A stretch of DNA of 64,000 nucleotides from a phage (GCA_027337125.1 GCA_027337125.1_3057.1); one strand, 5' to 3'. Counted from the first letter of the stretch, positions 26,777 to 40,308 are shown. A program made the numbers and translations. The notes: generated by a model not told the origin, from the letters alone.

Positions 26777-28475
26777 TTGTGTATTGACCAGATGAAATAG
26801 AACTCATAGATGCCATTTTTTCTGTCCAATCACCACCAACGTCCCAATCAACTGTCCCAGCAACTTTCCAAGAAAGATTTCCATTTACTGTATTAGTTTG
26901 ATTTCCTTCAACTAAAGTAGTAGCATCCCCTTTAACTGTAATGTCAGCATTACCTTCAACTACAATAGTAACATTACCTTTAACTAGGATAGTTCCATTA
27001 CCTTCAACTGTCTTAGTTTCATCGCCACGCACAAATATTGTGTTGCTTCCATCTATTTGGTGAAGACGATTATCCATGTTGTAATAAATTTCTGATCCAC
27101 CAACGTTAGTCTTTTTATCGCCGGCTACTAAAAAATTACCATCAGCATTTGTTATATCATACAAATTATCAACGGTTTTTCTTGTTCTTCTTCCTGATGG
27201 TGATACTTCCTCATACGTTCCAGTCGGATGAACTAATCTGTATCGTTCTTGTCCAGGGGTATCATCAAATTCCTGAATATGACCGCTTTCAGTTTCCATT
27301 GTGTGAACATACGGATATTCACCTTTATATGAAGAAACAGGTTCTTTGAATAAAATTCTCGAATCATTCGGAATAGGAGGATCGGCCGGGTCAGAAGACT
27401 TTGCTACAGTAGCAGCCATTGCTGACAAAGACCTAGCTGGCGTTTTAACTTCAATACCGTATGATTCCAAATTCCCGGTAAGAATAATCATGGTAACACG
27501 GGATGCACGGCCTTTTGTTTGTTGATACCACAATGAATCACGACCGGCTTTATATGCTTTTTCCCAATCTCCGGCTAACATAGCAGTTAACATTGTGTTA
27601 AATTTAGCTACGCCACCAACGCCCATTTGGAATGCCATATTTTCTAACGCCATTTGACGAGAACGATTAACTGCCTGCCAAACTGGGCCAACTTTAGAAT
27701 GTGATTTAATGTCACGTTGCATATCAGCCAAATCGCGTTCAAATAAAGTTACCGCTTCTTCCATTGTAATAGAACCTGGATTTCCGGTAATTTCACGACC
27801 AACTTGTTTTGATAAAACTTTATTAATTTGGGCCATATCACGAACTGGCTGCTTCATGATAAGATGACCAATACCAATTGTCGGATATCCTTCGGTATCC
27901 CAATAAACTTTTAGTCTTAATCCTTCATCACGGCGAAGCATTTCAGCCATTGACATATTTGGATTATCATCAGTTGGAATCTCTGATAGTGGTCTATCAT
28001 CGGGATTTATCGCAGTATCTAAATTACTATCTTGGATAATATTAGAAGACGAATCATATCCTACTTCTCCGCCTTGGTTTAATACGTTAGTATCATTTCC
28101 TAGACGTCTAGGATACTGTCCAGTTGGGTCAGAAAATCCTTCAAGTCTATTAGGTTTTTCGCGAACTATCCCACCATACGTGCCAAGGACAATTCCGTTA
28201 GTTTTCCATTTGTCTAAAAAATGACCATATACTCTAGTTCCTTCTACCGGACCAGTAACAGAACCTCCAATTCCAGACATTGCTGCAGAAGTTATAGGTT
28301 GAATAACTGACATCCATGGCAATTTATCGGTTGGAATACCCATTACGTCGCCTTGCGCTCTTTGGGGTGGATGCAGACCAACCACACGAACACGAACACG
28401 ACCTAATTTTAATGGGTCCATTCTATCTTCAACAACACCAACAAACCAGTTGAGGTTATTACTTATCATTTCCAT
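26748..28475 (-). CDS. 5: Baseplate hub and tail lysozyme gp5
   Basis: 575 aa; internal lysozyme domain YWDTEGYPTIGIGHL and C-terminal VxGxxxV beta-helix repeats. Confidence 0.95.
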   Translation of the reverse strand: MEMISNNLNWFVGVVEDRMDPLKLGRVRVRVVGLHPPQRAQGDVMGIPTDKLPWMSVIQPITSAAMSGIGGSVTGPVEGTRVYGHFLDKWKTNGIVLGTYGGIVREKPNRLEGFSDPTGQYPRRLGNDTNVLNQGGEVGYDSSSNIIQDSNLDTAINPDDRPLSEIPTDDNPNMSMAEMLRRDEGLRLKVYWDTEGYPTIGIGHLIMKQPVRDMAQINKVLSKQVGREITGNPGSITMEEAVTLFERDLADMQRDIKSHSKVGPVWQAVNRSRQMALENMAFQMGVGGVAKFNTMLTAMLAGDWEKAYKAGRDSLWYQQTKGRASRVTMIILTGNLESYGIEVKTPARSLSAMAATVAKSSDPADPPIPNDSRILFKEPVSSYKGEYPYVHTMETESGHIQEFDDTPGQERYRLVHPTGTYEEVSPSGRRTRKTVDNLYDITNADGNFLVAGDKKTNVGGSEIYYNMDNRLHQIDGSNTIFVRGDETKTVEGNGTILVKGNVTIVVEGNADITVKGDATTLVEGNQTNTVNGNLSWKVAGTVDWDVGGDWTEKMASMSSISSGQYTIDGSRIDIG

Positions 28476-29049
28476 AAGATTTCTCCATTATACGTATAAG
28501 GTCGTTCATAAATGAATTAATGTCTGATTTTGCTATTATTTTTATTTGACGAAGTTTTTCATTTTCAAGAACAGCAGCTTCATACGTATCGACCGCAGCA
28601 AGTGCTCCTTCGTATTGAGGATATTTTCTAGCTTTATCGCCTTTATCATACCAAACATATGGATTATCATCGTATGATATTAAATTATAAAATTTTTCAC
28701 CATTCTCATTCACATGATATACTATTTGGTCTCCACCTACATTTTTGTATTTTTGTATAGATGCTTGATAAGCAGCTTCTTGCGAAGTAATCCATCCATA
28801 ATACGGATCATAATTATCATTACACATCAATAAAACCCAATACAACTGCGGATTTCCATATATAGCATTTGCTAATTCTTCCGGGCGTGGTGAACCTTTA
28901 ATATAATAAGTACGTAAGCGATATCCCGCAAGAGCGCGTTTGAAATAGTCTTTATAGTTTCTAAAAATATCTGTCATAGGAATAGTCGGCGCGTTTTTAT
29001 TCACCGTTTTGGCCGCATATTCAATCGGATCAAAAAATGTAAAGAGCAT
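28459..29049 (-). CDS. 53: Baseplate wedge protein gp53
   Basis: 196 aa as T4 gp53; divergent from gene 4. Confidence 0.9.
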   Translation of the reverse strand: MLFTFFDPIEYAAKTVNKNAPTIPMTDIFRNYKDYFKRALAGYRLRTYYIKGSPRPEELANAIYGNPQLYWVLLMCNDNYDPYYGWITSQEAAYQASIQKYKNVGGDQIVYHVNENGEKFYNLISYDDNPYVWYDKGDKARKYPQYEGALAAVDTYEAAVLENEKLRQIKIIAKSDINSFMNDLIRIMEKSYGNDK

Positions 29050-29062
29050 GGGCCCTCCTGTT

Positions 29063-29070
29063 TATAAATA
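29063..29070 (+). promoter_or_regulatory. Late promoter TATAAATA for gene 4
   Basis: tataaata 27 nt upstream of the gp4 ATG. Confidence 0.5.
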
Positions 29071-29077
29071 TATTATC

Positions 29078-29085
29078 TATTTATA
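29078..29085 (-). promoter_or_regulatory. Late promoter TATAAATA for gene 53 (divergent)
   Basis: Plus tatttata 29 nt upstream of the gp53 ATG on the minus strand. Confidence 0.5.
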
Positions 29086-29096
29086 AGGAGAATCCA

Positions 29097-29549
29097 ATGG
29101 CATATTCTGGAAAATGGGTTCCTAAAAATATATCAAAATATAGAGGTGACCCTAAAAAAATTACGTATAGATCAAATTGGGAAAAATTCTTTTTTGAATG
29201 GTTAGATAAAAATCCAGAAATTATTGCATGGGGTAGTGAAACAGCAGTAATTCCTTATTTTTGTAATGCAGAAGGGAAAAAACGTAGATACTTCATGGAT
29301 ATTTGGATGAAAGATTCTTCTGGACAAGAATTTTTTATTGAAATAAAGCCTAAAAAAGAAACACAACCACCAGTTAAACCAGCACATCTAACAACTGCAG
29401 CGAAGAAAAGATTTATGAATGAAATTTATACATATTCCGTTAATACTGACAAATGGAAAGCAGCACAATCTTTAGCTGAAAAGCGTGGAATAAAATTTAG
29501 AATTCTAACAGAAGATGGATTACGAGCTCTTGGCTTTAAGGGGGCATAA
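29097..29549 (+). CDS. 4: Head completion protein gp4
   Basis: 150 aa as T4 gp4. Confidence 0.92.
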
Positions 29550-30376
29550 TGGCTATTTTTCAAATAATTAATGAAAGCACTCCCCAAGTTCCAAAGGTTA
29601 AGCAATCATTAAACGAAAAGAAATGGATTCAGATAGGTCTTGAATACAAAAAGGCCAAAGCAAAAGGAATGACAGGAAAGCAATTTGCTGAAGAAAGAGG
29701 AATCAAATACTCTACGTTTACTTCGGCAATGTCAAAATATGCTTCAGGAATTAAAACGGCTGAAAAGATTCAAAAGCTTGAATCAAAACCAATGAATAAA
29801 CTCAATAAGCAAGAAAGACAACTGCTTATGATAAATTCATTCAGACAAACATTGCGTGATAAAATTCGTAATGAAGGCGCAGCAATTAATAATAAAACCA
29901 GAAAGTGGTTTGCTGAAACTATTAAGCAAGTAAAAGGACATAAAGTTGTTCGCCCGCAGCCGGGACGAATATATGCTTTTGCTTACGATGCTAAACACAA
30001 AGAAACTCTTCCTTATTGGGATAAATTTCCTTTGATAATTTACCTTGGTTTAGGTAAACATAATTTAATGTATGGATTGAACTTGCACTATATTCCACCT
30101 AAAGCTCGTCAACAGTTTCTAGAAGAGCTTTTAAAGCAATATTCAAATACACCTACTATTACTAATAAAACGAAATTAAAAATTGATTGGAGTCAAGTGA
30201 AAGGATTTAGGGGTGCAGACCAAATGATTAAGGCATATATACCCGGTAATATTATGGGTAGCCTTGTTGAAATCGCCCCGAAAGACTGGGCGAACGTTGT
30301 GTTAATGCCACTCCAAAGCTTCTACTCCAAAGGAAAACGTTTCTCTGCAAACAAAGTTTGGAGCAATGTACGATGA
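29549..30376 (+). CDS. 2: DNA end protector protein gp2
   Basis: 275 aa; follows gene 4 with overlapping stop/start. Confidence 0.92.
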
Positions 30377-31032
30377 ATTATGAAAAAATTTATAATTCAC
30401 TAATTGATAGGGCTCGCAATAGAGCCCTTACTGGATATAAAGAAAGACATCATATTATTCCGAAATGTTTAGGCGGTAGTAATGATGCTTCTAACTTGGT
30501 TGATTTAACTCCAGAAGAGCATTATGTTGCACATCAGCTATTAGTAAAAATACACCCAAATTCTTTAAAATTATCTTATGCAGCCATAAAAATGACGGTT
30601 TCAACTAAATATGTTAGGAGAAATAATAAAGTTTATGGTTGGTTAAAAAGAAAACATGCAAATAATATTTCAAATACACAAACTGGACGAAAATATTATA
30701 ATAATGGTAAAAGATGTATAAAATTGCATGATGGAGATATAATTCCTGAGGGATTTATTTTAGGAAGAGGATGGAGTCCGACACAAGGAACAACTCATTC
30801 TAGAAAAAATGACACATTTAAAAACAAAAAGCTTCAATCTGCTTTAGCTAATAAACGGTGGGAAAAAGAAAAGAAAATAATGTTAGATAACTTTGGAGTT
30901 AACACTATTGATGAAGCAAAGAAAATTGTTCTTGATTTAAAATCAACTTGTCATCCAAGATATTGGCGAAAGCCAACTTTAGAAAAATTTCCATTTATGA
31001 CTTCTGCTCGTTTAAGAAGTCTAATAAATTAA
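30373..31032 (+). CDS. Mob-family HNH homing endonuclease (free-standing) between genes 2 and 3
   Basis: [14 protein letters not shown]...[34 protein letters not shown]; ATG overlaps the gene 2 TGA (ATGA). Confidence 0.85.
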
Positions 31033-31138
31033 TTCTATTATCTTCCATTCTTTTCTATTGTTTGTTCTAATTGGAATTGAATGGAAGGGACTTAGACCCA
31101 TTATACCACCAACACTTATAAAGCATTATGAGGAATAT

Positions 31139-31669
31139 ATGTCGCAAGCACTACAACAAATTTTTAACCAAGCAAATACAACTAACTTTGTAGTATCAAT
31201 ACCGCATAGCAATACTACATCTGCTTTTACTTTAAATGCTCAGTCAGTTCCTATTCCAGGAATTAGAATACCTGTTACTGATACCGTGACTGGGCCGTTT
31301 GGACTAGGCAGAGCGCAACGTCCAGGAGTTACATTTGAGTACGATCCACTCATCGTGAGATTTATAGTTGACGAAGAGCTTAAGTCGTGGATAGGAATGT
31401 ATGAATGGATGCTAGGAACTAGTAACTATCTTACAGGTGAAAATACTGCCCAAAAAACAGGTCCTGAATACATTACGCTTTACATTTTAGATAATAGTAA
31501 AACTGAAATCGTGATGTCAATAAACTTTTATAAGCCTTGGGTTTCTGACCTGTCTGAAGTAGAATTTAGCTACACAGAAGATTCAGACCCAGCTTTAGTA
31601 TGCACAGCAACGATTCCTTATACGTATTTTCAAGTAGAAAAAGATGGCAAAATTATAGCAGAAGTTTAA
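31139..31669 (+). CDS. 3: Tail completion / sheath stabiliser gp3
   Basis: Start set at Met 28 of the track ORF (MSQALQQIFNQANTTNF), giving 176 aa as in T4 gp3; GAGG RBS upstream. Confidence 0.92.
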   Translation: MSQALQQIFNQANTTNFVVSIPHSNTTSAFTLNAQSVPIPGIRIPVTDTVTGPFGLGRAQRPGVTFEYDPLIVRFIVDEELKSWIGMYEWMLGTSNYLTGENTAQKTGPEYITLYILDNSKTEIVMSINFYKPWVSDLSEVEFSYTEDSDPALVCTATIPYTYFQVEKDGKIIAEV

Positions 31670-31693
31670 TGCTTCAGTTTCATGTGTTATAAT
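31668..31693 (+). promoter_or_regulatory. Putative MotA-dependent middle promoter upstream of gene 1
   Basis: MotA-box-like aaTGCTTCA centred about 30 nt upstream of the inferred start, with tataat at 31688-31693. Confidence 0.45.
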
Positions 31694-31718
31694 CTTAACT
31701 AAATTTGAGGAGAAACAT

Positions 31719-32431
31719 ATGAAACTAATCTTTTTAAGTGGTGTAAAGCGTAGTGGAAAAGATACTACTGCAGATTTTATCATGAATAATTATTCTGCAG
31801 CTAAATATCAACTTGCTGGTCCTATTAAAGATGCATTGGCTTATGCATGGGGCGTATTTGCAGCAAACACTGACTATCCTTGCTTAACTCGTAAAGAGTT
31901 TGAAGGAATTGACTATGATCGTGAGACTAATTTAAATCTGACTAAATTAGAAGTAATTACGATTATGGAACAAGCATTTTGCTATCTTAATAGTAAAAGC
32001 CCAATTAAAGGCGTGTTTGTTTTTGATGACGCAGTTAATTTCGTAGCATTTAACAAGATTATTGACGTTATAAATAATATTGAAGATCAATGGTCAGTCC
32101 GTCGTCTGATGCAAGCCCTAGGTACGGATTTGATTGTTAATAACTTCGACCGCATGTATTGGGTAAAATTATTTGCTTTAGATTATCTTGATAAATTTAA
32201 CTCAGGTTATGATTATTATATCGTTCCTGATACTCGTCAAGATCATGAAATGGATGCGGCTAGGGCGATGGGTGCTACAGTAATTCATGTAGTTCGTCCT
32301 GGTCAAAAATCCAATGATACTCATATTACAGAAGCTGGATTGCCAATTCGTGATGGCGATTTAGTAATTACAAACGATGGTTCTCTTGAAGAACTTTTTT
32401 CTAAAATTAAAAATACACTAAAGGTACTATA

Positions 32432-34543: not shown

Positions 34544-34616
34544 TGGGAATTAGCCAAGTTGGTAAGGCATAGCACTTTGACTGCTAGATGCAAAGGTTCG
34601 AGTCCTTTATTCCCAG
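34544..34616 (+). tRNA. tRNA-Gln (anticodon UUG)
   Basis: Cloverleaf folded by hand: acceptor tgggaat/attccca, anticodon stem tagca/tgcta with loop ctTTGac, T-arm aaagg-ttcgagt-ccttt. Confidence 0.85.
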
Positions 34617-34617
34617 C

Positions 34618-34704
34618 GCGAGAATGGTCAAATTGGTAAAGGCACAGCACTTAAAATGCTGCGGAATGATTTCCTTGTGGGTTCGAGTCCCACTTCTCGT
34701 ACCA
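34618..34704 (+). tRNA. tRNA-Leu (anticodon UAA), long variable arm, encoded CCA
   Basis: Acceptor gcgagaa/ttctcgt, anticodon loop ctTAAaa, T-arm tgggttcgagtccca, 3' acca. Confidence 0.8.
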
Positions 34705-34710
34705 AAGTTT

Positions 34711-34782
<72 letters not shown>

Positions 34783-34794
34783 AAATTTAATTTA

Positions 34795-34868
34795 CTCCGT
34801 GTAGCTCAGTTTGGTAGAGCGTCTGCTTTGGGAGCAGAATGTCGCAGGTTCAAATCCTGCCACGGAGA
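34795..34868 (+). tRNA. tRNA-Pro (anticodon UGG)
   Basis: Acceptor ctccgtg/cacggag, anticodon stem tctgc/gcaga with loop ttTGGga, T-arm gcagg-ttcaaat-cctgc. Confidence 0.85.
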
Positions 34869-34870
34869 CT

Positions 34871-34957
34871 GGAGGCGTGGCAGAGTGGTTTAATGCACCG
34901 GTCTTGAAAACCGGCAGTCGCTCCGGCGACTCATAGGTTCAAATCCTATCGCCTCCG
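34871..34957 (+). tRNA. tRNA-Ser (anticodon UGA), long variable arm
   Basis: Acceptor ggaggcg/cgcctcc, anticodon stem ccggt/accgg with loop ctTGAaa, T-arm ataggttcaaatcctat. Confidence 0.85.
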
Positions 34958-34964
34958 TAATTTC

Positions 34965-35037
34965 GCTGATTTAGCTCAGTAGGTAGAGCACCTCACTTGT
35001 AATGAGGATGTCGGCGGTTCGATTCCGTCAATCAGCA
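34965..35037 (+). tRNA. tRNA-Thr (anticodon UGU)
   Basis: Acceptor gctgatt/aatcagc, anticodon stem cctca/tgagg with loop ctTGTaa, T-loop ggttcgattcc. Confidence 0.85.
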
Positions 35038-35043
35038 TATCAA

Positions 35044-35115
35044 GGCCCTGTAGCTGGAAGGTTCAAGCAAGCGACTCATAATCGCCAGATGGTGGTTCAA
35101 TTCCACCCAGGGCCA
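35044..35115 (+). tRNA. tRNA-Ile (anticodon CAU, lysidine-type) or Met-like
   Basis: Acceptor ggccctg/cagggcc, anticodon loop ctCATaa, T-arm ggtgg-ttcaatt-ccacc; T4 encodes a CAU tRNA-Ile at this position. Confidence 0.75.
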
Positions 35116-35156
35116 TATTTTGAGAACATAAATACTCTTAGAAATAGGAGATATTT

Positions 35157-35822
35157 ATGTTCCATTACATTTATAAAATAACAAATAAAATTAATAATAA
35201 AATCTATATAGGCGCTCATTCTACCGAAAATTTAGATGATGGATATATGGGTTCTGGTAAATTATTAAAAAGAGCCCAAGATAAATATGGTATAGAAAAT
35301 TTTTCTAAAGAAATATTAGAGTTCTTTGACGATAAAACCTCTATGTTTGAGTCAGAAAAGAATATTGTGACTGAAGAGTTTTTAAAGCGCCCTGATGTTT
35401 ATAATTTGAAATTAGGTGGTGAAGGTGGTTGGGACCATTTAAACACTAAAGAATATTTGGATAAAAAGAAAGAAGCTTCCTTAAAAGGAGCTGCCGCTTT
35501 TAAAACCAGATTTGAGAACGACCCAGACCTTAAAGAAAAATATCGTAAAATGGGTTCAGAAAGGTTTAAACAGCTTTGGGATAATCCTAAGTATAGAGAG
35601 AAATTTTTAAATACTAAATCTTTCTTGGGTAAGACCCATACTCCTGAAACTATTAATAAAATGAAAGAATCTCACGCCAGAAATAAACACCAACAAGGTG
35701 AAAAGAATTCCCAATTTGGCATGATGTGGATTCATTCATTAGATGAAAAAGTTTCTAAACGTATTAAGAAAACTGACCCAATTCCAGAAGGATGGTTTAA
35801 AGGTCGAAAAATGAAATTTTAA
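35157..35822 (+). CDS. segB: SegB-type GIY-YIG homing endonuclease within the tRNA cluster
   Basis: 221 aa; YIYKITNKINNKIYIGAHS (GIY-YIG), YMGSG, LGGEGG; sits between tRNA-Ile and tRNA-Arg as T4 segB does. Confidence 0.88.
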   Translation: MFHYIYKITNKINNKIYIGAHSTENLDDGYMGSGKLLKRAQDKYGIENFSKEILEFFDDKTSMFESEKNIVTEEFLKRPDVYNLKLGGEGGWDHLNTKEYLDKKKEASLKGAAAFKTRFENDPDLKEKYRKMGSERFKQLWDNPKYREKFLNTKSFLGKTHTPETINKMKESHARNKHQQGEKNSQFGMMWIHSLDEKVSKRIKKTDPIPEGWFKGRKMKF

Positions 35823-35825
35823 TTA

Positions 35826-35902
<77 letters not shown>

Positions 35903-36244
35903 GACAAGAAACCGGGTCGCTACCGGTAAGTCGTCGGACTGATGTTCCCTGAGTAAGGAATTGCGTTAATAATCTTTGTGTTTATTGATGCCCTCTTACA
36001 TCACAGCAGAAACGGCGCACCGAATTATCGATTCGAGGAAATATCTTTGCCGTAAGCCGAGTAGCGTTTTTGACGGAACGTTCGGATATGGTCGAGATGT
36101 GGCCTTTTAAAAATATTGAGTAGCGTCAACTACTTAATAACCGGGTTCGAATCCCGGCGTTTCGTACAAACACTTGCCTTAGCAGGTGGAACCCGACAAG
36201 GTTGCCGCAAGGCTTAGCCCCGACCGAAAGGTTGGGGCTTTTTA
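35903..36244 (+). ncRNA. Stable small RNA region downstream of tRNA-Arg (T4 species 1/2 RNA-like; boundaries approximate)
   Basis: ~340 nt without a convincing ORF, contains a tRNA-like T-arm (gggttcgaatcccggcg) and ends in an intrinsic terminator; T4 encodes two stable RNAs here. Confidence 0.45.
36216..36244 (+). terminator. Intrinsic terminator (agcccc...ggggct + U-run)
   Basis: Hairpin agccccgaccgaaaggttggggct followed by ttttt. Confidence 0.65.
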
Positions 36245-36376: not shown

Positions 36377-36406
36377 ATTTACATCCCTGTTCTTCCATGG
36401 TACTAT
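36377..36406 (+). promoter_or_regulatory. T4-type early promoter with conserved ggtactatacaactatcaa cassette
   Basis: -35 atttac, 18-nt spacer, -10 tactat; the track ATG at 36397 lies inside this promoter so the real start is taken at 36451. Confidence 0.55.
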
Positions 36407-36959: not shown

Positions 36960-37002
36960 TATTCTCACGGATTTTAAATCTTAATCAACCTAAGGAAATA
37001 CT

Positions 37003-37596
37003 ATGAACACACTGAAGAAAATTGTTGAGTTTATTCGCACTAAACTTGGTTCTGCTATGGCTAAAAATCTATCTGTTGAAGAACAGTATACTGCTGCAGC
37101 AGCAAAACTACTTGATAAAATTAAAGATCTAAAAACTGCTTCTGTTAAATCTATTAATGAAGAAAAACGTATTCGTGAACTTGTTATCGAAAAGAATCGA
37201 CAGGCCGAATCAAAAGAGCGTGAAATTCGTAAACTTCTTTCCGAAGGTCAAGATGTAACAATGCATGCTAAACTCGGTTTGCTATATCGTCGAACAGCTG
37301 AACAGTTGACTACTAAAGCTGATGGTTATGCTGAAATGCGAATTGAAATCGCCAAGAAAGTAGTTGAGTTAGATGATGCTCGCCAAGAACTTGCAGTTAA
37401 ATTGGAATATATCCGTGAAACTCGTGCAGCAAATGCCCTTGGAATTAGTACTGCCGATGATGTAGTTGAAATTGCAGCACTGACTAAGGTTGATATTGAA
37501 GATACTCTTGCTCGAGTTGAAACCTTTAATGGCAATATTTCTGGGGTTGAAACCACCTCTGCTGATGTTCAGGAATACATTAATTCTCTGAAATAA
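37003..37596 (+). CDS. Coiled-coil protein with PspA/IM30-like features
   Basis: 197 aa, almost entirely predicted helix with heptad pattern and a TLARVE segment resembling PspA TLARMK; assignment is tentative. Confidence 0.7.
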
Positions 37597-37601
37597 TGAT
37601 A

Positions 37602-37617
37602 AGGGGCTTCGGCCCCT
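37602..37617 (+). terminator. GC hairpin (aggggc-ttcg-gcccct) after the coiled-coil gene
   Basis: UUCG-tetraloop hairpin; weak U-tract, so possibly an RNA stabiliser. Confidence 0.4.
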
Positions 37618-37637
37618 ATTACTTGGAGTAAATAGGA

Positions 37638-38246
37638 ATGAGAATGCAAAATGATTTCAATTCAATGTTTGAAGAGTTCCAAAGACAGGTTGATGTTCCA
37701 GACCAATTACTGAATGCTCTTAAACGCATGGCAGAAGGACGTAATTACTATTGGGGGTCTTCATATGAAACTGACGAAAGTCTTTCTGGAAGATTTTATA
37801 GAGGTAAAAAGTCTTTAATACGTCCTGGAATACTTATTAACAGTATTGAATCAATTCATTCATTGACATGTGATTTTGATGTTGAATTTACTGATTTCAT
37901 TTCTCCTGAATGGACAGTTTGTTATTTAAACGACGATTATGATTATCTTGGCATTTATAGTTTAAGTGACGCATGGTTTAAGCGTAATTTACAAAAGTCA
38001 AATTTATTTTATATTGATACTACGGTAAAATTTCAAGGCAAGAAATATTTCTTTACTCTTATAGTTGACTCTGAAACAAAATATGAAAATAAGCGTATTC
38101 TTAGTAAAAAGAATATCTTGACTATTGTTGATGATCTTTTTGATAAATTCGTAGAAAATCCTAATTTTGAAAGCGATTTATTACTAGAAAAATTTGTTAA
38201 GGAATGTAGAGAATATGTCAAAGCCATCACTATACCTTCCAAGTAA
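37638..38246 (+). CDS. Hypothetical protein
   Basis: 202-aa ORF (alternative start at 37644). Confidence 0.65.
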   Translation: MRMQNDFNSMFEEFQRQVDVPDQLLNALKRMAEGRNYYWGSSYETDESLSGRFYRGKKSLIRPGILINSIESIHSLTCDFDVEFTDFISPEWTVCYLNDDYDYLGIYSLSDAWFKRNLQKSNLFYIDTTVKFQGKKYFFTLIVDSETKYENKRILSKKNILTIVDDLFDKFVENPNFESDLLLEKFVKECREYVKAITIPSK

Positions 38247-38607
38247 ACCTTTGAAGTATGAATTAAAGCGCCAGCTAATTTCTACTGATGTATTAATAGG
38301 TCCTGTTATACTCATATCATTTGTAATTCTATTGATTATTGGAGGTGTTTTAGATGTTATGACTGATATTGATTCTGGCGAAATACTTGTATTAATGCTA
38401 ATTCTTCCATTAATAGTTCCATTTTTATTAGTACCTGTAAATTGGGTAGGATACTGGTATCAAGGAAGGCATTATCGTAAACGCGTACGTGATTGGAAAG
38501 CACAGTGTAAAAAGATTAAAAAGGAATATCAGCTTAAACTTGCTGCGTATGAATTTGATGAAATTATGAAATTTGTTAAGGAATCACGATGCAAAAGCCA
38601 AAACTAA
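38215..38607 (+). CDS. Small membrane protein (two predicted TM helices)
   Basis: Start set at Met 8 of the track ORF (MSKPSLYLPSK); hydrophobic core ISTDVLIGPVILISFVILLIIGGVL...LMLILPLIVPFLLVPV, basic C-terminus. Confidence 0.6.
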   Translation: MSKPSLYLPSKPLKYELKRQLISTDVLIGPVILISFVILLIIGGVLDVMTDIDSGEILVLMLILPLIVPFLLVPVNWVGYWYQGRHYRKRVRDWKAQCKKIKKEYQLKLAAYEFDEIMKFVKESRCKSQN

Positions 38608-38951
38608 ATAAAGTCAAATATTCGCTTCCTGAGTCATTTTTAATTTTTGCTGTGGCGTTGGCTGCAGCTCTTGCGGGTAGTCTTTTTGGATTGTTAATTG
38701 ACTGTCTTATTTTAAACATCGATGGCACAGTAAATATAATAGAAGTTTGGAGTGAACTTCGCTATACTAAAATTATTTCATTATTTTCATTCTTTTGTAT
38801 CATTCTATATTTTCATTATGATAATTTTAAAATAAATTGGCAAAGAAAAAAGGATTACAAAATACAATTAAAAGAATATAATAGCTACATGTCTTATATT
38901 GAAAATGAATCAATGAAAGAGTTTGTGATTGATTGCAGGAAATTAAAATGA
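38589..38951 (+). CDS. Small membrane protein
   Basis: 120 aa; hydrophobic segments FLIFAVALAAALAGSLFGLLIDCLIL and IISLFSFFCIILYF. Confidence 0.6.
   Translation: MQKPKLNKVKYSLPESFLIFAVALAAALAGSLFGLLIDCLILNIDGTVNIIEVWSELRYTKIISLFSFFCIILYFHYDNFKINWQRKKDYKIQLKEYNSYMSYIENESMKEFVIDCRKLK

Positions 38952-39388: not shown

Positions 39389-40308
<920 letters not shown>

What the first reader, a model, noticed from the sequence alone, without database searches (positions are those of the whole stretch)
37003..37596. PspA/IM30-like coiled-coil protein in the lysozyme-proximal early block
The 197-aa protein is almost entirely heptad-patterned helix with a central segment ([23 protein letters not shown]...TLARVE) reminiscent of the PspA/Vipp1/ESCRT-III family. 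A phage copy could buffer membrane stress during infection or tune holin timing; two small membrane proteins follow at 38215 and 38589. The similarity is impressionistic.
Basis: inference. Interest (0 to 1): 0.4.

Follow-up and report, generated by a model that had tools for sequence, protein, structure and literature searches.

The report
Phage T4-type PspA/Vipp1-like membrane protein
The 197-residue early protein (gene e.6 of a T4-like phage, so far of unknown function) is a very diverged, phage-borne relative of the bacterial membrane-repair protein PspA/Vipp1, so this lytic phage probably brings its own tool for keeping the host's inner membrane intact during infection.

Summary
The ORF at 37003-37596 (+) is real. 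It is the ortholog of T4 gene e.6 (98.5% identical to T4) and has homologs in about 1,100 phage genomes. In T4 its RNA appears early and the protein is detected by mass spectrometry.

The window protein alone hits no Pfam model. Three family-level results support the link:
- A 42-sequence family profile puts cyanobacterial Vipp1/IM30 chains first among PDB sequences (E 1.3e-4), collinear from residue 1 to about 146.
- hhalign against a PspA/Vipp1 alignment gives 93.8% probability (E 1.7e-7), against 1.0-1.7% for reversed-sequence controls.
- Two Ackermannviridae members of the same family (same PHROG 1203) pass Pfam's curated PF04012 threshold (39.0 and 35.1 bits; cut-off 33.9).

The AlphaFold2 model (pLDDT 80.9) has five helices in the PspA order, and Foldseek ranks 11 Vipp1 chains first. 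There are three caveats:
- The last ~50 residues show no significant PspA similarity.
- No conserved partner gene exists.

The function proposed is peripheral binding to the inner membrane, polymerisation and preservation of proton-motive force. This is inferred, not shown, and T4 knock-down gave no fitness defect in the laboratory. I class it as a new, diverged phage member of a known family, of moderately high interest.

The parts
37003..37596 (+). Coding sequence of the 197-aa protein, ortholog of T4 e.6 and a diverged PspA/IM30-family protein
   Evidence: ORF. 98.5-100% identical to Tequatrovirus e.6. PHROG 1203. Family profile to Vipp1/PspA. Pfam PF04012 hit in family members.
37006..37068 (+). 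Residues 2-22: N-terminal amphipathic, basic helix, the alpha0 equivalent and putative membrane-binding helix
   Evidence: Helix 2-22 in model ma9d541a9ea07. Aligns with alpha0 of Vipp1/PspA from residue 1. Hydrophobic moment 0.45 and net charge +3, against 0.42 for PspA and 0.57 for Vipp1. pLDDT is only about 60.
37075..37437 (+). Residues 25-145: long helical hairpin (alpha1 25-80, tip 81-85, alpha2/3 86-145), the core ESCRT-III/PspA hairpin
   Evidence: pLDDT 79-98. Collinear HMMER and hhalign alignments place the hairpin tip (EGQDV...HAKLGLL) opposite that of Vipp1 (NGEENLAREAL). Foldseek 6zvs_A: rmsd 3.0 over 121 columns.
37438..37593 (+). Residues 146-197: family-specific C-terminal region with two predicted helices (152-173, 187-196). 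Equivalence to alpha4/alpha5 of PspA is not shown.
   Evidence: Conserved within the e.6 family (GI..ADDV..A.L.KVDV.D.L.RVETF.G...T..D...YL.SLK). Helices at low pLDDT (46-74). On its own it shows no significant similarity to the PspA C-terminus (hhalign probability 1.1%).
36992..36997 (+). Shine-Dalgarno-like AAGGAA, 5 nt upstream of the ATG
   Evidence: Read directly from the sequence.
36378..36406 (+). Sigma-70-type promoter-like site (TTTACA-17-TACTAT with an upstream TG) ahead of e.8-e.7-e.6. Likely early promoter of the transcription unit.
   Evidence: Consensus scan. It follows a strong terminator at 36216-36239. There is no TATAAATA late box or MotA box between 36240 and 39390 on the + strand. 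T4 e.6 RNA is classed as early.
37599..37619 (+). G+C-rich hairpin with a UUCG loop immediately after the e.6 stop codon. Possible RNA-stability element or weak terminator.
   Evidence: Some GenBank relatives annotate a 'terminator' here. No T-run follows on the + strand, so it is not a canonical intrinsic terminator.
37638..38246 (+). Context: e.5 (202 aa, soluble, PHROG 2607, unknown function), immediately downstream
   Evidence: Not homologous to the downstream genes of e.6 homologs in RB43 or FEC14.
38194..38951 (+). Context: e.4 (38194 or 38359 to 38607) and e.3 (38589-38951), small predicted inner-membrane proteins
   Evidence: Hydropathy segments. PHROGs 2604 and 2330. Any partnership with e.6 is pure speculation.

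Best explanation
The gene is e.6 of a Tequatrovirus. It encodes a compact (197 aa), very diverged, phage-specific member of the PspA/IM30(Vipp1) family, which is the bacterial branch of the ESCRT-III superfamily.

Shown here:
- Homology of residues 1 to about 145 to alpha0-alpha3 of PspA/Vipp1.
- The same helix order and the same hairpin position.
- A basic amphipathic N-terminal helix and no transmembrane segment.
- An early-type promoter context.
- From published T4 omics: early RNA and a detectable protein.

Inferred mechanism. Soon after infection the protein accumulates in the cytoplasm and binds the inner membrane peripherally through alpha0. It then polymerises through its hairpin into a coat, ring or rod that seals or stabilises stressed bilayer, so proton-motive force is kept up until programmed lysis. 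The stress could come from tail-tube penetration, superinfection, lysis from without, or phage and host membrane proteins.

The rationale rests on established T4 biology, not on tests done here. T4 shuts off host transcription, so the sigma-54/PspF-dependent host psp operon cannot be induced to do this job.

My confidence that it is a PspA/IM30 homolog is about 0.85. My confidence that it works as a membrane-integrity effector is about 0.45.
For: Identity of the gene:
- T4 e.6 ortholog.
- PHROG 1203.

Homology:
- A2 profile against PDB sequences: the top 7 hits are all Vipp1/IM30 (E 1.3e-4 to 8e-4), collinear 1-146 against 1-147. E. coli PspA 4whe is collinear at E 1.2.
- hhalign probability 93.0% with E 3.5e-7, and 93.8% with E 1.7e-7 over 143 columns from residue 1. 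Reversed-sequence controls give 1.0-1.7%.
- PF04012 is hit by 5 of 42 family members. P0186 scores 39.0 bits and P0185 35.1 bits, above the curated cut-off of 33.9, over residues 6-146 against profile positions 2-143. Reversed controls give no hit.
- These members are tied to the window protein by the A1 profile (E 1e-21 to 6e-20, full length) and by shared PHROG 1203.
- The top NCBIfam hit of P0186 is LiaH, collinear, E 0.005.

Structure:
- Five helices in the PspA order, pLDDT 80.9.
- Foldseek against PDB: ranks 1-11 are all Vipp1 (best E 6.3e-5, probability 1.00), then CdvB. PspA and CHMP2A-CHMP3 appear further down.

Alpha0 amphipathicity. No transmembrane segment.

Timing:
- Promoter-like site and absence of late or MotA boxes.
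- T4 e.6 is 'early-RNA_middle-Protein' (PMC9697503 supplement).

Consistent background:
- The host psp operon is only weakly induced by T4 but strongly by phiX174 (PMC12795941).
- PspA binds membranes and repairs proton leakage (Kobayashi 2007, as cited).
- Vipp1 binds membrane through alpha0 and needs the hairpin and alpha5 for assembly (PMC8281802).
Against: - The window protein alone gives no PF04012 hit at E<=10. It also shows no signal against a single PspA sequence. The link needs a deep family profile or intermediate sequences.
- Coiled-coil proteins also appear at E of about 1e-3 to 1e-2 in the PDB profile search (prefoldin, Cluap1), so those E-values are inflated by composition.
- The family hallmark linker KAEDP is replaced by KN-x-S-x-E-D.
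- The C-terminal 50 residues, where PspA/Vipp1 carry the alpha5 polymer interface, have no significant similarity and low pLDDT.
- Alpha0 amphipathicity is not statistically exceptional (6.8% of shuffles reach it).
- No Psp partner genes are present, and no partner is conserved next to e.6 homologs.
- dCas13d knock-down of T4 e.6 was scored 'Not Fit', meaning no fitness defect, under laboratory conditions (PMC11879866 supplement).
- Membrane binding, polymerisation and any effect on proton-motive force are untested.
Confidence: 0.6

Rival explanations
1. Decoy or regulator rather than effector. The phage PspA-like protein mimics host PspA in order to bind host partners. Candidates are PspF, PspB/PspC, host PspA polymers, or immune components that use PspA as a platform. 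It would thereby silence or hijack host envelope-stress signalling or a defence pathway, without repairing membrane itself.
For: - The conserved part is alpha0-alpha3. In E. coli PspA the 1-144 fragment is the crystallised regulatory fragment (4whe appears collinear).
- The C-terminal polymer interface is not recognisably conserved.
- A CBASS cyclase is held on PspA by Cap2 conjugation in B. subtilis (PMC11153139), so PspA can be an immune hub.
- Dispensability in a defence-poor laboratory host is typical of counter-defence genes.
Against: - Identity to host PspA is only about 10-13%. The closest solved relatives are cyanobacterial Vipp1, not E. coli PspA, which argues against molecular mimicry of the host protein.
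- T4 shuts off host transcription anyway (established knowledge), so blocking PspF would gain little.
- No PADLOC or anti-defence evidence was obtained.
Confidence: 0.15
2. Active membrane remodelling or lysis-timing factor. The polymer shapes inner membrane for a phage process, or modulates the holin/antiholin clock and lysis inhibition. Candidate processes are membrane-bound head assembly sites, vesiculation, or exclusion of superinfecting DNA. This contrasts with passive repair.
For: - ESCRT-III/Vipp1/PspA polymers deform and tubulate membranes (PMC8281802).
- The gene lies in a block with small membrane proteins e.4 and e.3 and near lysozyme e.
- In Kuttervirus FEC14 the gene immediately downstream encodes a membrane protein.
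Against: - e.6 RNA is early, whereas lysis genes are late. Lysozyme e has its own TATAAATA late promoters.
- Neighbouring genes are not conserved between phage groups.
- No fitness effect on knock-down.
- The only lysis-related hit (Rz-like spanin PHROG, E 0.24) is noise.
Confidence: 0.15
3. Unrelated coiled-coil or helical-hairpin protein, for example a BAR-like, SMC-like or scaffold-like adaptor. On this reading the resemblance to PspA comes from convergent heptad composition.
For: - Individual family members collect many weak coiled-coil Pfam hits.
- Coiled-coil chains appear at E of about 1e-3.
Against: - Reversed-sequence controls abolish both the hhalign signal (93.8% falls to 1.0-1.7%) and the PF04012 hits.
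- Two members exceed Pfam's curated gathering score.
- Every alignment is collinear from residue 1 with coincident hairpin loops.
- Foldseek's first 11 hits out of 350,542 chains are one family.
Confidence: 0.1

Closest known systems
Vipp1/IM30 of cyanobacteria and chloroplasts (Synechocystis sll0617, Nostoc Vipp1; PDB 7o3w, 6zvr, 8qfv)
   Same: - Best sequence-profile and Foldseek matches.
- Collinear alpha0, alpha1 and alpha2/3, with the hairpin tip at the same position.
- Amphipathic N-terminal helix.
- Soluble or peripheral, with no transmembrane segment.
   Different: - About 15-17% identity.
- The e.6 protein is 197 aa, against 260-270 aa for Vipp1.
- It lacks the Vipp1-specific C-terminal alpha6 extension.
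- The KAEDP linker is not conserved.
- The alpha4/alpha5 region is shorter and not significantly similar.
- It is encoded by a virulent phage and expressed early in infection.
PspA of E. coli and other bacteria (Pfam PF04012; LiaH of Bacillus)
   Same: - Same Pfam family at the level of e.6-family members.
- hhalign probability about 94% over 140-170 columns.
- Similar length (197 against 222 aa).
- Presumed role in inner-membrane integrity.
   Different: - No PspF, PspB or PspC (or LiaI/LiaF) partners are encoded nearby.
- About 10-13% identity to host PspA, so it is not a recent capture from the host.
- The window protein itself is below Pfam detection.
- Canonical PspA is virtually absent from phage genomes: 2 metagenomic hits in 50,697 records.
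Archaeal and eukaryotic ESCRT-III (CdvB/CdvB2, CHMP1B, CHMP2A-CHMP3, Snf7)
   Different: No sequence-profile match to Snf7-type families was seen. ESCRT-III proteins lack alpha0 in this form and work with Vps4 and ESCRT-I/II partners, which are absent here.
T4 membrane-protection functions Imm, Sp and rI/rIII (superinfection immunity, resistance to lysis from without, lysis inhibition)
   Same: Early or middle T4 accessory genes that act at the envelope of the infected cell and are dispensable in standard laboratory growth. This rests on established T4 knowledge and was not tested here.
   Different: These proteins are unrelated in sequence and fold. Imm and rI are membrane-anchored or periplasmic proteins, not soluble ESCRT-III-like polymers.

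Membership tests
PspA/IM30 (Pfam PF04012; bacterial ESCRT-III) | The query protein itself matches the family model above the curated threshold | tested here: not met
   hmmscan of the window protein gives no PF04012 hit at E<=10. The same holds for all 30 close homologs of alignment A1.
PspA/IM30 (Pfam PF04012; bacterial ESCRT-III) | The protein's family is linked to the PspA/IM30 family by profile or intermediate-sequence search, with controls | tested here: met
   - P0186 (39.0 bits) and P0185 (35.1 bits) exceed the gathering score of 33.9. Both lie in the same PHROG 1203 and are hit by the A1 profile at E of about 1e-20.
- The A2 profile puts Vipp1 first in the PDB at E 1.3e-4.
- hhalign gives 93-94% probability and E of about 2e-7, against 1-2% for reversed controls.
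- Reversed sequences lose the Pfam hit.
PspA/IM30 (Pfam PF04012; bacterial ESCRT-III) | Helix order alpha0, then alpha1/alpha2+3 hairpin, then alpha4 and alpha5, with the hairpin tip near residue 80-85 | tested here: met
PspA/IM30 (Pfam PF04012; bacterial ESCRT-III) | N-terminal amphipathic helix alpha0 that binds membrane | tested here: inconclusive
   The helix is predicted and aligns with alpha0. Its hydrophobic moment is 0.45 and net charge +3, comparable with PspA (0.42) and Vipp1 (0.57). However, 6.8% of shuffles reach that moment and pLDDT is about 60. Membrane binding was not tested.
PspA/IM30 (Pfam PF04012; bacterial ESCRT-III) | Conserved alpha4/alpha5 region that forms the inter-subunit polymer interface | tested here: inconclusive
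   Two helices are predicted at low confidence. A permissive or global hhalign alignment runs end to end (probability 95.6% in global mode). The C-terminal 58 residues alone give probability 1.1% and E 0.047, against 0.24 for the reversed control.
PspA/IM30 (Pfam PF04012; bacterial ESCRT-III) | Homo-oligomerisation into rings, rods or carpets, and membrane remodelling or repair of proton leaks | not testable with these tools
   This needs purified protein, electron microscopy and liposome assays. No multimer prediction was available.
Psp / Lia envelope-stress systems (operon level) | Genomic association with PspF/PspB/PspC, LiaI/LiaF or another conserved membrane partner | tested here: not met
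   No such genes lie in the e.8-nudE block. The genes downstream of e.6 homologs in T4-like phages, RB43 and Kuttervirus belong to different PHROGs and are not similar by BLASTP. The protein is therefore a stand-alone PspA-like gene, not a Psp system.
Eukaryotic/archaeal ESCRT-III (Snf7 family) | Sequence-profile match to Snf7/CHMP/CdvB families | tested here: not met
   No Snf7-type Pfam hit appeared. There are only fold-level hits. The relationship is at superfamily level, through PspA/Vipp1.

The most novel reading that the evidence does not exclude
T4-like (Straboviridae) and ViI-like (Ackermannviridae) virulent phages carry their own ESCRT-III-type polymer. They deploy it early to take over control of inner-membrane integrity or shape. 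For example, it could reseal injection or superinfection lesions, or neutralise membrane-depolarising abortive-infection effectors. This would make it the first viral ESCRT-III/PspA homolog with a role in infection. It would be the reverse of the classic situation, in which a phage protein induces the host's 'phage shock' protein.
Probability: 0.3. Interest if true: 0.8.

Novelty: new member of a known kind. Interest (0 to 1): 0.6.

Why it matters
T4 is the best-studied virulent phage, yet e.6 is still listed as 'conserved hypothetical, unknown function' in a 2025 genome-wide re-annotation and in PHROGs. Placing it in the PspA/Vipp1/ESCRT-III superfamily has several consequences.
- It gives a concrete, testable function to a gene present in more than 1,000 sequenced T4-like and ViI-like phages, many of them used for therapy.
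- It extends the ESCRT-III superfamily to bacterial viruses. Canonical PspA is essentially absent from phage genomes.
- It bears on an old question in T4 physiology: how the infected cell keeps its membrane energised after tail penetration and superinfection, once host stress responses are shut off.
- A minimal 197-aa PspA-like protein with a different C-terminus could also help to show which parts of the fold are needed for membrane binding and which for polymerisation.

Tried and rejected
**Searches that gave nothing or were unspecific**
- Direct Pfam, PDB-sequence and single-sequence hhalign searches with the window protein gave nothing. The shallow A1 profile gave Vipp1 only at E 1.8-4.4. 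The signal appeared only after distant family members from the 1.84-billion-protein search were added.
- The AFDB50 fold library was not available.
- NCBIfam gave only a weak collinear LiaH hit for P0186.

**Workarounds**
- The homolog search with E. coli PspA returned only relatives above 86% identity. I therefore built a more diverse gamma-proteobacterial PspA set from genome contigs and added two Vipp1 sequences read.
- The search for related loci with A2 failed because no stretch was conserved enough. I mapped the distribution with tblastn instead.

**Ideas considered and rejected**
- A conserved partner gene: rejected. The genes downstream of e.6 homologs in RB43 and FEC14 are unrelated to e.5.
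- A recent capture of host pspA: rejected, given about 10-13% identity and closer matches to Vipp1 and LiaH.
- A late, lysis or virion role: rejected. There is no late promoter, RNA is early, and the spanin PHROG hit at E 0.24 is noise.
- The GenBank names 'host specificity protein' (e.6) and 'phosphoserine phosphatase' (e.5): rejected as unsupported.

**Literature**
- Searches for e.6 or for phage-encoded PspA/ESCRT-III found no paper making this link. The library is incomplete, so prior notice elsewhere cannot be excluded.

Full report
**1. What is there**

The window is a Tequatrovirus (T4-like) genome segment. A 3.65-kb stretch around the finding is 96-98% identical to many Escherichia, Shigella and Yersinia T4-like phages. 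The ORF at 37003-37596 (+) encodes 197 aa. It is the ortholog of T4 gene e.6, 98.5% identical to T4 itself and 100% identical to several phages.

The local order is the T4 one:
- a tRNA cluster at 34544-35902, with a GIY-YIG segB-like ORF inside it;
- a strong terminator at 36216-36239;
- a sigma-70-type promoter-like site at 36378-36406;
- e.8, e.7 and e.6;
- a G+C-rich UUCG hairpin at 37599-37619;
- e.5, then e.4 and e.3, both with hydrophobic segments;
- the Nudix gene nudE;
- two TATAAATA late-promoter boxes at 39391 and 39404;
- lysozyme e.

No late box or MotA box lies between the terminator and nudE on the coding strand.

**2. The gene is real and expressed**

tblastn finds homologs in 1,100 of 50,697 phage records, almost all full length, at identities from under 60% to 100%. 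PHROGs places it in family 1203, 'unknown function'. Published T4 data class e.6 (T4p129) as early at the RNA level and middle at the protein level, so the protein is detected (PMC9697503 supplement). A dCas13d knock-down screen lists it as 'conserved hypothetical, unknown function', with prior essentiality unknown and knock-down 'Not Fit', meaning no measurable fitness cost (PMC11879866 supplement).

**3. Testing the PspA idea by sequence**

The protein alone gives only coiled-coil noise in Pfam. It gives nothing against PDB sequences and nothing in hhalign against a single E. coli PspA sequence. A 30-sequence alignment of close homologs (A1) placed Synechocystis Vipp1 in the PDB list, but only at E 1.8-4.4. 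That alignment was, however, collinear from the N-terminus.

An exhaustive profile search of 1.84 billion representative proteins found just 45 relatives. The full-length ones are about 200 aa, the rest are fragments, and none is a canonical PspA. Adding the distant members gave a 42-sequence alignment (A2) and changed the picture:

- *PDB sequences.* The top seven hits are all Vipp1/IM30 (E 1.3e-4 to 8e-4), aligned 1-146 against 1-147 with the hairpin loops opposite each other. E. coli PspA(1-144) is also collinear, at E 1.2.
- *Pfam on individual members.* Scanning each A2 member showed PF04012 (PspA_IM30) hits in 5 of 42. P0186 (39.0 bits, E 8.9e-10) and P0185 (35.1 bits) are above Pfam's curated cut-off of 33.9, over residues 6-146 against profile positions 2-143. 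P0187 scores 22.3 bits.
- *Who these members are.* They are the e.6 counterparts of Ackermannviridae such as Kuttervirus FEC14 and SJ3. They belong to the same PHROG 1203 and are matched full length by the A1 profile at E 1e-21 to 6e-20.
- *Profile against profile.* Against E. coli-type PspA plus two Vipp1 sequences, hhalign gives probability 93.0% and E 3.5e-7. Against a broader gamma-proteobacterial PspA set taken from genome contigs, it gives 93.8% and E 1.7e-7 over 143 columns starting at residue 1.

**4. Controls for coiled-coil bias**

Reversing either alignment drops hhalign to 1.0-1.7% probability, while reversing both restores 93%. Reversed P0185, P0186 and P0187 give no PF04012 hit at E<=10. 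I conclude that residues 1 to about 145 of the e.6 family are homologous to alpha0-alpha3 of PspA/IM30.

**5. Testing by structure**

The AlphaFold2 model built with A2 has mean pLDDT 80.9. It reaches 90-98 along the hairpin, about 60 in the first 20 residues and 46-74 in the last 50. Its helices lie at 2-22, 25-80, 86-145, 152-173 and 187-196, which is the alpha0 to alpha5 order of PspA/Vipp1.

Foldseek against 350,542 PDB chains ranks Vipp1 chains 1-11 (best E 6.3e-5, probability 1.00). Archaeal ESCRT-III CdvB follows, with PspA and CHMP2A-CHMP3 further down.

**6. What is and is not conserved**

- The N-terminal helix is basic and amphipathic (hydrophobic moment 0.45, net charge +3), like alpha0 of PspA (0.42) and Vipp1 (0.57). 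This is not statistically exceptional, because 6.8% of shuffles reach the same moment.
- The hallmark KAEDP linker is replaced by KN-x-S-x-E-D.
- The last ~50 residues are strongly conserved within the e.6 family. On their own they are not significantly similar to the PspA C-terminus (probability 1.1%). A permissive or global alignment does run end to end and pairs '...[10 protein letters not shown]' with '...ISEQLAQLKAK'.
- The protein has no transmembrane segment.

**7. Distribution and context**

The family is confined, in these databases, to two families of phages that infect Enterobacterales and Aeromonas:
- Straboviridae: Tequatrovirus, the RB43 and GAP161 types, and Klebsiella, Aeromonas and Serratia T4-likes;
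- Ackermannviridae: Kuttervirus, the phiEa2809/Bue1 group and the phiMAM1/3M group.

Canonical E. coli PspA finds only two metagenomic 'Bacteriophage sp.' contigs among 50,697 phage records.

There is no conserved neighbour. The gene downstream is e.5 in T4-likes, an unrelated 306-aa protein in RB43, and an unrelated membrane protein in FEC14. No PspF, PspB, PspC or LiaI-like genes are present.

**8. Mechanism**

Shown: homology to the membrane-binding, polymer-forming core of PspA/Vipp1, early expression, solubility, and dispensability in the laboratory.

Inferred: the protein binds the inner membrane by alpha0 and polymerises by its hairpin to stabilise or reseal stressed membrane and keep proton-motive force. 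It would thereby replace the host Psp response, which a T4-infected cell cannot induce because host transcription is shut off (established T4 knowledge). One transcriptome study reports only weak psp induction by T4 against strong induction by phiX174 (PMC12795941). That is compatible with either shut-off or mitigation of stress.

Three rivals remain:
- a decoy or regulator acting on host Psp or PspA-linked immunity (compare the CBASS cyclase-PspA conjugation in PMC11153139);
- an active membrane-remodelling or lysis-timing role;
- a convergent coiled coil, which the controls make unlikely.

**9. Comparison and novelty**

This is not a Psp system and not an equivalog of PspA, Vipp1 or LiaH. 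It is a stand-alone, shortened, highly diverged phage branch of the PspA/IM30 family, with its own C-terminal region. None of the searches I could run found a paper linking e.6, or any phage gene, to PspA/ESCRT-III, and a 2025 re-annotation still calls it unknown. The literature library is incomplete. Ackermannviridae members that pass the Pfam threshold may already carry an automatic PspA_IM30 label in protein databases. I therefore rate it 'new member of a known kind', with interest 0.6. It gives a testable function to a widespread gene of the model phage and a first candidate viral ESCRT-III/PspA homolog. The function itself remains unproven, and the laboratory knock-down phenotype is null.

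Noticed in passing
window 35157-35822 (+), inside the tRNA cluster 34544-35902: A 221-aa GIY-YIG-type ORF (segB-like homing endonuclease, judged by position and by the motif 'YIYKITN...YIGAH') sits between tRNA-Met(cat) and tRNA-Arg. ARAGORN finds 8 tRNA genes, whereas the relative HMD-9 has 10 annotated.
   Followed up: partly
window 37599-37619: A G+C-rich hairpin with a UUCG tetraloop lies directly after the e.6 stop codon. No T-run follows on the coding strand. Some GenBank relatives annotate it as a terminator. It may be an RNA-stability or processing element between e.6 and e.5.
   Followed up: partly
window 38194-38607 (+): The start of e.4 is ambiguous. With the ATG at 38359 (82 aa) the protein matches only positions 49-130 of PHROG 2604. 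The TTG at 38194 gives 137 aa with two hydrophobic segments and overlaps the 3' end of e.5 by 53 nt. The long form looks like the real gene.
   Followed up: partly
window about 38951 (e.3/nudE junction), compared with L001 5150-5638: The relatives W143 and HMD-9 carry an extra gene of about 490 bp, annotated 'membrane protein' (probably e.2), between e.3 and nudE. The window lacks it, and their alignments to the window are split into two pieces.
   Followed up: no
L001 (PV287714.1) and other GenBank records: Several annotations in relatives have no Pfam support here and look like propagated errors: 'host specificity protein' (e.6), 'putative phosphoserine phosphatase' (e.5), 'sulfurtransferase' (e.3) and 'putative RNA ligase 2' (e.8).
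   Followed up: partly
L082 4647-5225 (Escherichia phage FEC14, Kuttervirus): In this Ackermannviridae phage the e.6 homolog is followed 38 bp later by a 192-aa protein with an N-terminal transmembrane helix (PHROG 11433, 'membrane protein'). It is unrelated to T4 e.5 and could be a lineage-specific membrane partner.
   Followed up: partly
window 28000-32000: GC skew changes sign from negative to positive at about 28-30 kb. This coincides with a switch in the predominant coding strand, and TATAAATA boxes change from the - strand to the + strand there.
   Followed up: no
phage records MT835668.1 and MT839532.1: These are the only phage-collection hits to canonical E. coli PspA (28-32% identity, full length). 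Both are unannotated metagenomic 'Bacteriophage sp.' contigs from human faeces. They could be genuine phage-borne canonical PspA or mis-binned bacterial DNA.
   Followed up: no
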